From IMG/VR virus record IMGVR_UViG_2541047719_000008: DNA of 55,177 nucleotides; one strand, given 5' to 3'. This DNA comes from a virus (Duplodnaviria > Heunggongvirae > Uroviricota > Caudoviricetes). The translations under genes and the position numbers were made by a program. This document shows, piece by piece, positions 6,310-17,590 of this stretch. Position 1 is the first letter of the stretch, and each line of letters starts with the position of its first letter. Below the pieces are notes generated by a model that was not told the DNA's origin, searched no databases, and saw nothing but the letters and a program-made list of their open reading frames with translations.

Positions 6310-7142
6310 ACAGTTTAACGGCAAATAACCGTTTGTCGCAACAGCTGGTGGTCAGTGTCGCTGAACACCTGTTGTTACGGCATGAATGCAGATTACCAAA
6401 TTACCTGGCTGTAAGTAACCACAGAGAACTTTACCTGACTGTGGGGGGCGAGTTGTGCGGGAACTTAACCGCTGGTTTCGTGACGGAAGAGGGCTTTATG
6501 TCCATGTTATTCGTTGGGAACCAGAAACACAGCGCGTTATCTATCTTCGCAAAGACTACCCGCATGAGTGCTTTAGTCCTTTGTGGAAATTCAGGCGTGA
6601 TTTTGTTGAGTGTGAAGGACCACCAGCACATTGATTCTGCCATTCCGGGACGTTACACTGTTCAGGCACCTTATAAAGCGGGTGACGGGATTGGCGTCCT
6701 GGAAATGTTATCGGCGATATATGACGCGCCAGCGTCTTTTTTATCGTCTGCGTCTGTGCACACCCAAATTATGGTGGGCTGGACGGGGGCACCGAAAGGT
6801 GCGCCGGTTTCCGATAACGCCGGTTACGCCAACCCCGTTCAGTTCACCACCAGCGAAATTGGCGTTTCCGGTGGTGAAGGTAATTCACTGTTATCGGAGG
6901 CTGCCATCATGGCTACTGTCCCAGCCCTCACTCGTCTGAATGATGAAGACTTACATAAACTCAGTTATGTAACAACTGCACTACGTGCTCTGCGCAAGGT
7001 AACTCTTTCGGATCCGCAGGCGCATCAGGTTTTGGTAGAAACCCTTCTTAACTTGCAGGCTGAACGTATTCGTCTGGCGGATAAGGCTAATTTTCATATT
7101 CACCGTCTCCTGAATATCAGCGGAGGGCATCGTCATGCTTAA
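6306..7142 (+). CDS. Hypothetical protein of the replication region
   Basis: 278-aa ORF overlapping the stop of the upstream gene; no motif recognised. Confidence 0.35.
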   Translation: MNSLTANNRLSQQLVVSVAEHLLLRHECRLPNYLAVSNHRELYLTVGGELCGNLTAGFVTEEGFMSMLFVGNQKHSALSIFAKTTRMSALVLCGNSGVILLSVKDHQHIDSAIPGRYTVQAPYKAGDGIGVLEMLSAIYDAPASFLSSASVHTQIMVGWTGAPKGAPVSDNAGYANPVQFTTSEIGVSGGEGNSLLSEAAIMATVPALTRLNDEDLHKLSYVTTALRALRKVTLSDPQAHQVLVETLLNLQAERIRLADKANFHIHRLLNISGGHRHA

Positions 7143-13421: not shown

Positions 13422-13720
13422 AAAATTCCTTAATACTGATAACTTGGCGCACTATACACACGTTCCTGAAGAAAGCTATAGTTTTTTGATGGGGTTGAAG
13501 ATGGCTGGATGTCTAAAATAAACATTGCTTCATATGTTCAACTATGCGTTAATGATTGCGTCGGTTTGAAGAACAGACGATATACGAAGTAGTTTACTAA
13601 AGCAGTTCTCATTTCAGGTGTTATTCACTTATTCCTTCTTTGAGTCTCTCCAATTAAGTACGAAGTCGTTTCTGTTATACAAGCCATTTATGCCGAAAGG
13701 CTCAAGTTAAGGAATGTAGA

Positions 13721-13936
13721 ATGTCAAATAAAATGACTGGTTTAGTAAAATGGTTTAACGCTGATAAAGGTTTTGGCTTTATTTCTCCTGTTGATGGTAG
13801 TAAAGATGTGTTTGTGCATTTTTCTGCGATTCAGAATGATAATTATCGAACCTTATTTGAAGGTCAAAAGGTTACCTTCTCTGTAGAGAGTGGTGCTAAA
13901 GGTCCTGCAGCAGCAAATGTCATAATTACTGATTAA
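13721..13936 (+). CDS. cspB: Cold shock protein CspB-like
   Basis: 71 aa [38 protein letters not shown]...; canonical RNP1/RNP2 motifs; long AT-rich leader upstream. Confidence 0.8.
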
Positions 13937-14217
13937 AATTCATAGTTTGTCTGTATACGATAACGAAGAAGGCTGATGCCTGAGTGGAGATACAGACAGA
14001 GTGGTGAATATTGGATCTCTTTAATAAATAGTAAGGAGGTCCAATACATGAAACAATGGCCAGCATATTTGGCAATAACTTAATCAGGAAAAGTATGCTA
14101 ACCATTGTGGTGAAGTGCAGGTTTGCTGCATGAATAGTTTTACAGCAGAAGCTAACTGCTGGCATAGCAAAACAAAGTGCGTAAGTGGATGACTCCCACA
14201 AAAAGTACCACAATATT

Positions 14218-14299: not shown

Positions 14300-14521
14300 T
14301 CAAGCTACAGCTTTAAGATTTGTCTGGAATACTTTGTTGCAATGAGGGCAGATCAAAAGGGCACCTTTTTGTATTCTTGAAAAACTGTGTTCTGACTCTT
14401 GGGTGCAGTTTGGGCAGGAACATTTAACGAGATAATTACGGCGTGATTTTGAGTCTTTACGTTCTGACATAGGCTTTTCCTGTATAAATGGCCGTATACA
14501 GTACACTAAATATGAAAACAT
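14300..14521 (-). CDS. Small zinc-ribbon protein (YdfK/YnaE-like)
   Basis: Two CxxC pairs (CPNC ... CPHC); small moron between the csp genes and the holin. Confidence 0.4.
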   Translation of the reverse strand: MFSYLVYCIRPFIQEKPMSERKDSKSRRNYLVKCSCPNCTQESEHSFSRIQKGALLICPHCNKVFQTNLKAVA

Positions 14522-14688
14522 ATCTCGTATTATTATTTAACATATGATTTTCTTTTAAAATAATTACCCACATTTTTAATGTGTCTGTTTTTTAGCGCCG
14601 TTGAGAACAACGTTTGCTATAAAAACTACCCCATAGACTCCGATCTTTTCAAACATATTGCACCATCTGTGTACATCGGGGTGAGGAT

Positions 14689-14904
14689 ATGAAATCAATG
14701 GATAAGTTAACAACAGGTATCGCCTATGGCACATCGGCTGGTAATGCTGGTTTCTGGGCATTGCAGTTACTCGATAAAGTAACTCCGTCACAGTGGGCTG
14801 CAATCGGTGTGCTGGGTAGTCTGGTATTTGGCTTGCTGACGTACCTGACAAACCTTTATTTCAAGATTAAAGAAGACAAGCGTAAGGTTGCACGGGGAGA
14901 GTAA
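14689..14904 (+). CDS. Class II holin/pinholin (phage-21 S-like)
   Basis: 71 aa [26 protein letters not shown]... with two transmembrane segments and a charged C-terminus; near-identical to S21/EssQ-type holins. Confidence 0.8.
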
Positions 14905-15460
14905 TTCAATGACACAAAACTATGAACTGATTGTGAAAGGGATCCGCAATTTTGAGAATAAAGTTGCGGTAACTGTAGCATTAAGGGACAAAAAACGCTT
15001 TGACGGTGAAATTTTTGACCTGGACATCTCGCTGGACCGTGTTGAAGGTGCCGCGCTGGAGTTTTATGAGGCAGCAGCCAGAAGGAGCATCAGACAGGTC
15101 TTCCTGGAAGTTGCAGCCGGGTTATGTGAAGGGGATGAGCAGTCGCCGGAAAAGCGCCCCATAATTTTAGAGGCGCAGAATGTGTGGATAACCTACAAAG
15201 GAAAGCTACCGGGAAGAATTACTGGTTCTCTGAAGACGCCACCGACGGCATTGCGGTCAGAAAAAGATGATATTGAATCGCCCATTGAAAAACTGGAGGG
15301 CAGCGTCGCTGATCTGAATAAAAAATTGTCGGTGCTGATTCCTTCTGAAGATGAAAAAAAACGCCGCGATGAGCAGTTTGCGGCGTTTTACGATTATTGC
15401 ATTGAAGTTACTCGCAGGAATTTTGTGAAGATTTTTGAGGAGGGTAAATCTCTTCAGTAA
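14888..15460 (+). CDS. Hypothetical protein inserted between holin and endolysin
   Basis: 190-aa ORF with no recognised motif; overlaps the holin stop; occupies the position of a lysis-cassette moron. Confidence 0.4.
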
Positions 15461-15674
15461 GCTTAATGGCGGACGCTGCAATTAATTCAGGAAGGTCCGC
15501 AAGGTCATCTGTCAGTGGATATGATGAAAAATCGGCGGCAGTTCTGTTAAGAAGCGCTTTAACTAATTCCTTTTCCTTCTCCGGCAACAAGTTGATTAGG
15601 GCTACGACTGCTTGCCTGAGTGCGATTAAATCAGCAAAAGTTTGTTTTGGTAGATTTGTGTAATCCATAGTCAC
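15408..15674 (-). CDS. Hypothetical small protein (convergent, overlapping the previous ORF)
   Basis: 88-aa ORF on the opposite strand overlapping the 3' end of 14888-15460; could be spurious. Confidence 0.25.
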   Translation of the reverse strand: MTMDYTNLPKQTFADLIALRQAVVALINLLPEKEKELVKALLNRTAADFSSYPLTDDLADLPELIAASAIKLTEEIYPPQKSSQNSCE

Positions 15675-15781
15675 CTCTGTGTTTATCAGATTGACATCCT
15701 CCTCCCGCCAGTGCCCATCACTGGTGAGGTAAGATTTAACATATCCAGGGATTTGAAGCCGATAAATCCTGATAAATATCC

Positions 15782-16809
<1,028 letters not shown>

Positions 16810-17172
16810 ATTAATATTAAATCGGATTATTTTTAGCGCTGAATGTGAAATTTAAATAAAAAGGACTCTTCCATGAGTCAAAATCCTTGAAATCTTAAGG
16901 GTAAGATAAAAGGTCATTAGACAGAATGACACGTTTTATTAATAAATAAAGCTATTGTTTCATTCGTGTGTTTTTCTTTACAAAAGTAATCCTTGCTATG
17001 GTTGGTTAATCATGCGTTAATGGTGTTCTGGTTTGTTACAAAATTATCTGAAGCAGTCATTGTTATAAATTTATTATTTGTACCTCTTGAGATTTCCTTG
17101 TTGGTTTTTCTCTCTGATATTTTTTTTCGGACCATTCTGCCCAAGGGCTAACTTCTTCAAAAGGTAATAATG

Positions 17173-17385
17173 ATGTCTAACAAAATGACTGGTTTAGTGA
17201 AATGGTTTAACCCTGAAAAAGGTTTTGGTTTCATCACGCCGAAAGATGGTAGCAAAGATGTGTTTGTCCATTTCTCAGCTATTCAGAGCAACGATTTCAA
17301 AACGTTAACTGAGAATCAGGAAGTCGAATTTGGTATTGAGAACGGACCTAAAGGCCCCGCGGCTGTTCATGTAGTGGCACTTTGA
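17173..17385 (+). CDS. cspI: Cold shock protein CspI-like
   Basis: [45 protein letters not shown]...; near-identical to CspI by eye. Confidence 0.85.
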
Positions 17386-17590
17386 GGTAGAAAATATTAC
17401 AAACCATATTCACTTTAGATGCCCGTGTTGCCATGGTTCTCAGTATAGAACATCATCTTTTGATGTTTCTGACAGGAATCCTTTCGGGGCAAAATGTATC
17501 TTTTGTAAATCAATGATGATTACATTTGATAATATTTCACAATACTTAAATGTTAGCCGTCTGTCGTTAGATTTAAGAAAGTGAAAATGA

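What the first reader, a model, noticed from the sequence alone, without database searches (positions are those of the whole stretch)
14888..15674. Extra genes inside the lysis cassette between holin and SAR endolysin
Between the S21-type holin and the SAR endolysin there is a 190-aa ORF with no recognisable motif and a convergent, partly overlapping 88-aa ORF on the other strand. Lysis cassettes are normally compact, so an insertion here is a moron or a lysis-timing modulator; the convergent overlap is unusual and one ORF may be spurious.
Basis: inference. Interest (0 to 1): 0.4.

Follow-up and report, generated by a model that had tools for sequence, protein, structure and literature searches.

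The report
YdfR fusion plus convergent small moron
The two "extra" reading frames between the holin and endolysin genes of this E. coli prophage are both real genes: a long YdfR-family protein and a small gene on the opposite strand, both already catalogued but of unknown function, so the finding is mostly ordinary.

Summary
The ORFs exist as described, but the interpretation needs correcting. The 190-aa ORF most likely starts at ATG 14909 (183 aa). It is not motif-less: residues 1-112 are a YdfR/DUF1327 domain (Pfam E 7e-42) and the whole protein matches phrog_2091.

Residues 113-183 are homologous to a stand-alone 73-aa gene in Salmonella phages, so the protein is an in-frame fusion, not a frameshift.

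The 88-aa ORF most likely starts at ATG 15668 (86 aa, phrog_2572). It is a real gene:
- Only its frame is stop-free in five family members with dS >1, and dN/dS is 0.3-0.4.
- It has a Shine-Dalgarno site.
- A conserved 25-nt element lies about 95-115 nt upstream of its start.
- A hairpin plus U8 terminator (15354-15389) sits inside the ydfR coding sequence.

The convergent 53-59-nt 3' overlap with a partner carrying the same C-terminal motif recurs in five architectures in E. coli and Salmonella phages. The 655-bp cassette (15117-15771) replaces 90 bp of K-12 Qin and occurs in about 300 of 5,426 complete E. coli genomes and in active phages.

Function is unknown. I read it as a late-operon accessory protein, whose YdfR N-domain binds RNase E in K-12, paired with a reverse-oriented moron. 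Interest is modest.

The parts
14689..14904 (+). essQ-type class II (phage 21 S) holin, first gene of the lysis cassette
   Evidence: Pfam PF04971, E 1.1e-33. PGAP annotates it as essQ in 100%-identical genomes.
14909..15460 (+). Long-form ydfR (183 aa plus stop).
   Evidence: Full-length match to phrog_2091 (1-183/183, E 3.6e-111). The exact protein is on 822 contigs and named 'YdfR family protein'. GGAG lies at 14896-14899.
14909..15115 (+). YdfR N-terminal beta-beta-beta-alpha domain (aa 1-69), shared with K-12 Qin YdfR
   Evidence: 82% identical to K-12 YdfR over aa 1-74; DNA homology to K-12 ends at 15116. AF2 pLDDT is 64-85. The synonymous excess among unique variants gives p = 2e-6.
15116..15244 (+). 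YdfR middle segment (aa 70-112), shared with the 114/116-aa YdfR forms; predicted disordered
   Evidence: The Pfam DUF1327 match extends to aa 112. phrog_406 matches 1-113. pLDDT is below 50 for aa 71-127.
15245..15457 (+). C-terminal extension of YdfR (aa 113-183), homologous to a stand-alone 73-aa gene elsewhere; predicted helical hairpin
   Evidence: BLASTP to the L183 73-aa ORF gives E 9e-6 and is colinear. The sense frame is stop-free in all five diverged members tested (one antisense frame has no stop in one member). Indels of 21 and 84 nt are in frame.
15408..15668 (-). orf86 (86 aa plus stop). Three-helix protein, phrog_2572 / WP_001306174.1.
   Evidence: phrog_2572 matches 1-86/86, E 1.2e-53. 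Only the sense frame is stop-free in 5 members, and dN/dS is 0.3-0.4 at dS >1. AF2 gives three helices, pLDDT 72.7.
15408..15460 (.). 53-nt convergent 3' overlap of ydfR and orf86
   Evidence: The same 53-nt overlap occurs in PhiR5_1 and Salmonella L181, and 59 nt in L183, L186, L188, L190 and L191.
15354..15389 (-). Predicted intrinsic terminator of orf86: 10-bp stem (core CGCCGC/GCGGCG), 12-nt loop, U8. It starts 18 nt after the orf86 stop and lies inside ydfR codons for [11 protein letters not shown].
   Evidence: The fold gives -20.8 kcal/mol, z -2.3. It is present in 43 of 49 haplotypes. It sits at the same relative position in distant family members, with one compensatory G:C to A:U change.
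15759..15783 (-). Conserved element ATGGATATTTATCAGGATTTATCGG upstream of orf86. It contains a candidate -35 TTTATC at 15766-15761. On the + strand it abuts and includes the first two bases of the endolysin start codon.
   Evidence: It is nearly invariant in 8 upstream regions, including loci with no adjacent lysozyme gene.
15738..15743 (-). Candidate -10 hexamer TATGTT, 17 nt after the TTTATC
   Evidence: TAT.GT is conserved in all 8 aligned upstream regions. The consensus match is weak and the promoter scan did not report it.
15117..15771 (.). 655-bp mosaic cassette absent from K-12 Qin, where 90 bp stand in its place
   Evidence: BLASTN breakpoints are at 15116 and 15772. Unique-variant density is 0.07-0.27 per site, lowest over orf86 (0.07-0.11), against 0.29-0.73 in the flanks.
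15782..16315 (+). rrrQ-type endolysin with an N-terminal hydrophobic (SAR-like) segment
   Evidence: Pfam Phage_lysozyme, E 2.6e-24. PGAP annotates it as rrrQ.
16312..16809 (+). rzpQ (DUF2514 spanin-like) with an embedded rzoQ-like lipoprotein ORF at 16505-16759
   Evidence: Pfam DUF2514, E 1.9e-38. K-12 annotates rzoQ inside rzpQ.

Best explanation
The interval holds two real genes that travel together as one mobile cassette in the lysis region of a Qin-like (phage-21-type) lambdoid prophage.

(1) ydfR, long form. It is transcribed with holin and endolysin from the late operon. Its N-terminal beta3-alpha domain is the YdfR/DUF1327 domain. In K-12, residues 1-72 of that domain bind the catalytic half of RNase E (and RNase G) and co-purify with RNA. 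Here it is fused in frame, through a disordered linker, to a roughly 70-aa helical module that is a separate gene in other phages.

(2) orf86. This is a three-helix cytoplasmic protein encoded on the opposite strand as its own transcription unit: a conserved upstream element with a weak -35/-10, a Shine-Dalgarno site, the ORF, and a hairpin-U8 terminator buried in the ydfR coding sequence.

My inference is as follows. orf86 is a moron expressed when the late operon is silent, that is, in the lysogen. It faces away from the endolysin because a forward promoter there would drive the endolysin. Late transcription through it then shuts it off by interference and by pairing across the 53-nt 3' overlap. 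The strict pairing of orf86 with the C-terminal module suggests the two products, or their RNAs, act on each other.

Shown: gene reality, fusion, mosaic boundaries and conservation of the architecture. Inferred: expression timing, orientation logic and any RNase E link for this long form.
For: Identity of the + strand ORF:
- DUF1327 and phrog_2091 matches.
- 82% identity to K-12 YdfR over aa 1-74, and cassette breakpoints at 15116/15772.
- K-12 YdfR 1-72 binds the RNase E N-terminal half and co-purifies RNA (PMC13232886).

Reality of both genes:
- orf86: only the sense frame is open in 5 members at dS 1.1-1.4, with dN/dS 0.3-0.4. It matches phrog_2572.
- C-extension: homologous to a stand-alone 73-aa gene that overlaps (8 nt) the 3' end of the DUF2514 gene upstream. 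Its frame is open in 5 members.

Conserved architecture:
- The convergent 53-59-nt overlap recurs in five architectures.
- The terminator hairpin is present, with a compensatory change in distant members.
- The upstream element is conserved.

Distribution:
- The same pair is found in inducible or isolated phages PhiR63_1, 2H10 and PhiR5_1.
- About 300 of 5,426 complete E. coli genomes carry it.
Against: - There are no expression data for either strand.
- The candidate promoter is weak by consensus and the scan did not call it.
- The terminator loop is 12 nt, and the U-tract degrades in distant homologues.
- The C-extension is only weakly constrained (pN/pS 0.4-0.9) and modelled at low confidence.
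- RNase E binding was shown only for the 103-aa K-12 protein. Its overexpression barely changed the transcriptome.
- A sublineage has lost the orf86 ATG, so orf86 is dispensable.
- No family, fold or defence-system match gives a function for orf86.
Confidence: 0.6

Rival explanations
1. The pair is a two-component functional system. The lysogen-expressed orf86 protein neutralises the late-expressed protein carrying the C-terminal module. This could be an immunity/toxin-like pair, a lysis-safety switch or a lysis-timing switch. The DUF1327 domain would tether the system to RNase E.
For: orf86-family genes were found only opposite a partner ending in the same roughly 40-aa motif, whether that partner is stand-alone (73 aa), fused to DUF1327 (168-243 aa) or fused to another protein (144 aa). 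The 3' overlap is always 53-59 nt.
Against: There is no similarity to known toxin-antitoxin or defence families. Neither protein has a membrane segment. The C-extension also occurs without orf86 (Stx1_699 and the 296-aa form). orf86 start loss is tolerated. Co-occurrence could simply reflect physical overlap of the two genes.
Confidence: 0.2
2. ydfR here is a pseudogene truncated at codon 112 by the cassette insertion, as PGAP annotates it. The downstream 71 codons would be untranslated or functionless read-through, and orf86 the only working cargo.
For: PGAP flags the gene 'incomplete; missing C-terminus' at 14909-15244 in identical genomes. Constraint is weak and the C-extension model has low confidence.
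Against: The frame stays open in 46 of 49 haplotypes. Indels are multiples of 3. The sense frame is stop-free in all five diverged homologues tested, and a stand-alone 73-aa homologue shows dN/dS 0.34 between L183 and L188. NCBI names the same 183-aa protein 'YdfR family protein' elsewhere.
Confidence: 0.1
3. The minus-strand unit works mainly as a cis-antisense RNA. It would pair with the 3' part of the ydfR message and block leaky read-through into the endolysin gene in lysogens. Its protein would be secondary.
For: The 3' overlap and hairpin are conserved on both strands. The reverse orientation is shared by four unrelated cargo genes in this slot.
Against: The protein sequence is conserved at 41-57% identity with an open frame and dN/dS 0.3-0.4. 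The transcript would not cover the endolysin coding region. No Rfam family matches.
Confidence: 0.07
4. The 88-aa ORF is a chance antisense ORF and only the + strand is coding.
For: Within closely related haplotypes the synonymous excess is weak (p about 0.05). The wobble-sharing + strand frame (65-aa ORF, 15466-15663) scores similarly.
Against: At deep divergence only the orf86 frame is stop-free. The 65-aa ORF loses its ATG in 17 of 49 haplotypes and has no Shine-Dalgarno site. orf86 has a Shine-Dalgarno site, a PHROG family and a confident helical model.
Confidence: 0.03

Closest known systems
YdfR of E. coli K-12 cryptic prophage Qin (P76160; Pfam DUF1327)
   Same: It sits in the same position, directly after the essQ holin and before the rrrQ endolysin. 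The N-terminal 74 residues are 82% identical. This is the region reported to bind the RNase E catalytic half.
   Different: The K-12 protein is 103 aa and its stop overlaps the endolysin start. Here the protein is 183 aa, with a different segment from aa 70 and an added helical module. The endolysin start is 321 nt downstream, with a gene on the other strand in between.
Lambda bor-type moron: a reverse-oriented, lysogen-expressed gene next to the lysis genes. This rests on my own knowledge of lambda, not on a test here.
   Same: It is a small autonomous gene facing against the late operon beside the lysis genes, and it is present or absent among related phages. In Salmonella phages the orf86 homologue sits after the spanin gene, the position bor holds in lambda.
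   Different: orf86 has no signal peptide or lipobox and is predicted to be a soluble three-helix protein. It overlaps its convergent neighbour by 53 nt. It has no sequence similarity to Bor.
PHROG families phrog_2091 (183 aa) and phrog_2572 (86 aa)
   Same: Both proteins match full length with E 3.6e-111 and 1.2e-53.
   Different: Nothing differs. Both families are listed as 'unknown function', so membership names the proteins without explaining them.
Convergent type I toxin-antitoxin loci of prophages with 3'-overlapping transcripts (for example txpA/ratA and bsrG/SR4 in B. subtilis; from my own knowledge)
   Same: These are convergent units on a prophage with a conserved 3' overlap, so the two transcripts can pair.
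   Different: Both partners here encode conserved soluble proteins. There is no small hydrophobic toxin, and the antisense partner is not a non-coding RNA.

Membership tests
YdfR family / Pfam DUF1327 (PF07041) | Match to the family HMM above the gathering score | tested here: met
   141.9 bits against a cutoff of 25, E 7.4e-42, residues 1-112 on profile 1-92/93.
YdfR family / Pfam DUF1327 (PF07041) | Location between the holin and endolysin genes of a lambdoid lysis cassette | tested here: met
   The order essQ, ydfR, rrrQ is the same as in K-12 Qin.
YdfR family / Pfam DUF1327 (PF07041) | Binding of the N-terminal 72 residues to the RNase E catalytic half (reported for K-12 YdfR) | not testable with these tools
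   Only the sequence was compared: 82% identity over aa 1-74. The binding data are from PMC13232886.
PHROG phrog_2572 (orf86 family) | Full-length match to the family profile | tested here: met
   1-86/86, E 1.2e-53. Distant members P0140 and P0143 also match.
Moron (autonomous promoter-gene-terminator unit inserted in a phage operon) | Present in some and absent from other closely related phages at the same site | tested here: met
   It is absent from K-12 Qin and from the 104/116-aa types. It is present in 8 of 80 related IMG/VR loci and in about 300 of 5,426 E. coli genomes.
Moron (autonomous promoter-gene-terminator unit inserted in a phage operon) | Own terminator | tested here: met
   A hairpin plus U8 starts 18 nt after the stop. 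It is conserved, with one compensatory change. This is a prediction only.
Moron (autonomous promoter-gene-terminator unit inserted in a phage operon) | Own promoter | tested here: inconclusive
   An invariant upstream element and a conserved TAT.GT hexamer are present. The hexamers match consensus poorly and the scan did not report them.
Moron (autonomous promoter-gene-terminator unit inserted in a phage operon) | Expression from the repressed prophage | not testable with these tools
   This needs strand-specific RNA-seq of a lysogen.
Holin/antiholin or other membrane lysis regulators | At least one transmembrane segment | tested here: not met
   Neither orf86 nor YdfR aa 113-183 has a hydrophobic stretch. 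The models show amphipathic helices. No holin Pfam hit was found.
Known anti-phage defence or toxin-antitoxin proteins | Match to a PADLOC or Pfam toxin/antitoxin model | tested here: not met
   There were no PADLOC hits for either protein. The only Pfam hit for orf86 was sub-threshold: ABATE, E 0.074.
Double-stranded RNA-binding domain fold (for the YdfR N-domain) | Significant structural match to dsRBD structures | tested here: inconclusive

The most novel reading that the evidence does not exclude
The convergent pair (C-terminal module and orf86) could be an undescribed two-protein switch carried by enterobacterial temperate phages. One partner would be made in the lysogen and the other only at lysis time. 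They would be coupled by their overlapping 3' ends and a shared hairpin. In this fusion the YdfR domain would recruit the switch to RNase E to control RNA decay or the safety and timing of lysis.
Probability: 0.15. Interest if true: 0.6.

Novelty: new member of a known kind. Interest (0 to 1): 0.3.

Why it matters
It corrects the reading of a very common E. coli prophage locus in three ways:
- The "motif-less" ORF is ydfR.
- RefSeq's pseudogene label for it is probably wrong.
- The small antisense ORF is a genuine, conserved gene.

It also shows that the ydfR-to-endolysin interval is a slot for reverse-oriented cargo genes, and that one cargo always comes as a convergent, overlapping gene pair with a built-in terminator. 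If the pair turns out to interact, it would give a handle on what YdfR proteins do in lysis cassettes, which is still open. As it stands this is a tidy annotation result, not a new kind of system.

Tried and rejected
Searches that gave no function:
- Pfam, NCBIfam, PADLOC and PDB sequence searches for orf86 found nothing usable.
- Foldseek of the orf86 model against PDB found nothing; the best hit was AcrIIC4 at E 2.3.
- Rfam found nothing in 14400-16000.
- Literature on DUF1327 amounts to one passing mention. A search for reverse-oriented morons in lysis cassettes found nothing relevant.

Selection tests with low power:
- Syn/nonsyn tests on 49 close haplotypes had little power because the cassette is nearly invariant. 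They could not separate orf86 from the wobble-sharing + strand frame.
- This was resolved only with distant homologues from the exhaustive HMMER search.

Hypotheses rejected:
- The + strand 65-aa ORF (15466-15663) is not a gene.
- The different reverse cargo genes (86, 90 and 104 aa) are not homologous to one another; BLASTP found no alignment.
- The 975-aa TPR/CHAT protein hit (P0139) was judged to be repeat-driven similarity.

Weak signal:
- The sigma-70 scan gave no promoter for orf86.

Full report
**What is there**

The window region is the lysis cassette of a Qin-like lambdoid prophage of E. coli. The stretch 14600-16400 is 100% identical to nine complete E. coli chromosomes and 98.6% identical to CFT073, APEC O1 and S88.

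The gene order is cspF, cspB, ynfU, essQ (holin), ydfR, a reverse-strand hypothetical gene, rrrQ (lysozyme), rzpQ, cspI.

The likely starts are different. For the + ORF it is ATG 14909, with GGAG 9 nt upstream and 4 nt after the holin stop. For the - ORF it is ATG 15668, with GAGGT 4 nt upstream. These give 183 and 86 aa. Public records of exactly these proteins use the same starts (822 and at least 1000 contigs).

**The plus-strand ORF is ydfR**

Residues 1-112 match Pfam DUF1327 at 141.9 bits (cutoff 25), and the full 183 aa match phrog_2091 end to end.

Against K-12 Qin, DNA homology runs to 15116 (ydfR codon 69) and resumes at 15772, 10 nt before the endolysin ATG. So 655 bp stand here where K-12 has 90 bp. 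In K-12 the 103-aa ydfR overlaps the endolysin start.

The AF2 model has three parts:
- a beta-beta-beta-alpha domain (aa 1-73, pLDDT 64-85);
- a disordered stretch (aa 74-122);
- two long helices (aa 123-181, low confidence).

**The C-terminal 71 residues are a separate gene elsewhere**

An exhaustive HMMER search with orf86 found distant relatives. Their loci were informative.

In Salmonella phages with quite different holins and a glycoside-hydrolase-19 endolysin, a 73-aa ORF that overlaps (8 nt) the 3' end of the DUF2514 gene upstream is convergent with a 93-aa orf86 homologue and overlaps it by 59 nt. That 73-aa protein is colinear with aa 113-183 of the window protein (BLASTP E 9e-6 over the last 35 residues; alignment).

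The same C-terminal motif, E-[KQ]-[KQ]-R-[RH]-x-E...K-x-[FL]-x(3)-K-x(2)-Q, ends four other kinds of protein:
- a 243-aa DUF1327 protein and a 144-aa non-DUF1327 protein, each opposite an orf86 homologue;
- the 168-aa Salmonella DUF1327 protein and the 211-aa PhiR5_1 protein, each with the same 53-nt overlap.

The window's ORF is therefore an in-frame fusion of two units.

The extension is coding. The frame is open in 46 of 49 haplotypes. The only common indels are 21 and 84 nt. The sense frame is stop-free in all five diverged members tested; one antisense frame also has no stop in one of them. The two 73-aa genes give dN/dS 0.34. Constraint is otherwise weak, with pN/pS 0.4-0.9.

RefSeq's label for this gene in identical genomes is 'incomplete, missing C-terminus', covering codons 1-112 only. 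I consider that an annotation artefact.

**The minus-strand ORF is a real gene**

Close haplotypes were not decisive. The cassette is almost invariant, at 0.07-0.27 unique variants per site, lowest over orf86 (0.07-0.11), against 0.29-0.73 in the flanks. The synonymous excess was marginal (p about 0.05). The + strand frame that shares wobble positions, a 65-aa ORF at 15466-15663, scored the same.

Three things settle it:
- In five family members with dS 1.1-1.4, the orf86 frame has no stop while every other frame has 2-11. dN/dS is 0.3-0.4.
- The 65-aa ORF loses its ATG in 17 of 49 haplotypes and has no Shine-Dalgarno site.
- The protein matches phrog_2572 full length, as do the distant members. 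It models as a three-helix bundle at pLDDT 72.7 from a shallow alignment.

**orf86 has its own signals**

Eighteen nt after its stop, the minus strand reads AAAACGCCGC, a 12-nt loop, GCGGCGUUUU, then UUUU (15354-15389). The fold gives -20.8 kcal/mol and z -2.3.

This hairpin lies inside the ydfR codons [11 protein letters not shown]. It is present in 43 of 49 haplotypes, with a G-U-compatible change in three more. It also occurs in the Salmonella copy.

In the distant members a hairpin sits at the same distance from the stop. In one group the stem has changed by a paired G:C to A:U substitution. That changes both encoded residues of the partner protein (R to H, A to V). The U-tract is weaker there.

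Upstream, the 25-nt element ATGGATATTTATCAGGATTTATCGG (15759-15783) is nearly invariant about 95-115 nt before the start codon in all eight aligned loci. These include loci where no lysozyme gene is nearby. A conserved TAT.GT follows 17 nt after the second TTTATC. By consensus this is a weak promoter and the scan did not call it, so I score the promoter as inconclusive.

**Distribution**

The cassette is in 294-300 of 5,426 complete E. coli genomes. It is also in isolated or induced phages PhiR63_1, 2H10, PhiR5_1 and PhiR12, in STEC prophages with Stx-phage-type late regions, and in Salmonella.

In every locus examined, orf86 lies opposite a partner with the C-terminal motif. The motif also occurs without orf86 (Stx1_699 and the 296-aa form). 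A sublineage with a 176-aa YdfR has orf86 ATG changed to ACG, so orf86 can be lost.

**The slot is not normally compact**

Among 80 IMG/VR loci with a near-identical YdfR N-domain, the interval comes in discrete types:
- 114 aa / 688 bp, with a convergent 90-aa ORF (phrog_2411) overlapping ydfR by 35 nt: 32 loci;
- 116 aa / 414 bp: 19 loci;
- 104 aa / 370 bp: 12 loci;
- 183 aa plus orf86: 8 loci;
- 268 aa / 1259 bp, with a convergent 104-aa gene (phrog_1853, Stx2-86 gp06): 5 loci.

Stx1_699 has a 233-aa reverse ORF. These cargo genes are not homologous to one another, yet all face away from the endolysin.

**How it most likely works (inference)**

orf86 looks like a moron made when the late operon is off. 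A forward-facing promoter in this slot would transcribe the endolysin in the lysogen, which would explain why all cargo here is reversed. Once Q-modified polymerase reads through, collision and pairing across the overlap should silence orf86.

Whether the orf86 protein acts on the C-terminal module is the open and more interesting question.

**Verdict**

Both genes belong to catalogued families of unknown function, and the window copy is identical to hundreds of sequenced ones. The conserved convergent pair with an embedded terminator, and the fusion to ydfR, are not described in the literature I could search. But they fit known kinds: lambdoid mosaicism and morons. Interest is 0.3.

Noticed in passing
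window 15117-15771; loci L099, L088, L089: The ydfR-to-endolysin interval is a slot for reverse-strand cargo. Unrelated ORFs of 90 aa (phrog_2411), 104 aa (phrog_1853) and 233 aa occupy it in other phages, all facing away from the endolysin.
   Followed up: partly
window 14909-15244: RefSeq/PGAP annotates ydfR in identical genomes as a pseudogene 'missing C-terminus', although the frame runs open to 15460. The same 183-aa protein is named an intact YdfR family protein in other records.
   Followed up: yes
window 15666-15668; loci L047, L060, L067, L072: In the sublineage whose YdfR is 176 aa (21-nt in-frame deletion at 15299), the orf86 start codon is ACG instead of ATG. PGAP then annotates no gene there.
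   Followed up: partly
L008 (site equivalent to window 15131-15139): One IMG/VR copy has an insertion of about 770 bp inside ydfR, with 9 bp (window 15131-15139) present in both flanking alignments. This is probably an IS element.
   Followed up: no
window 15772-15784: In K-12 the ydfR stop overlaps the endolysin start. Here the endolysin ATG is preceded by the conserved orf86 upstream element and no evident Shine-Dalgarno site. Endolysin translation may therefore be initiated differently in cassette-bearing phages.
   Followed up: no
window 13560-13999 and 17026-17431: Two full-length matches to the Rfam cspA thermoregulator (156.7 and 113.3 bits) flank the lysis cassette, at the cspB-like and cspI-like genes.
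   Followed up: no
window 6666-6742 and 6767-6854: Rfam matches to isrK (55.4 bits) and C4 antisense RNA (82.8 bits) lie side by side on the + strand, elsewhere in the prophage.
   Followed up: no
window 16505-16759: An 84-aa ORF with lipobox LTSC is embedded in another frame of rzpQ. It looks like an rzoQ-type outer-membrane spanin. It is not annotated in the RefSeq records viewed.
   Followed up: no
P0139 (975-aa protein from the exhaustive search): A TPR/CHAT-type repeat protein matched orf86 in eight stretches (E 1.6e-10). The helix-turn motif of orf86 ('ADLIALRQAVVALINLLPE') resembles its repeat unit. This is probably repeat-driven similarity, not homology.
   Followed up: no
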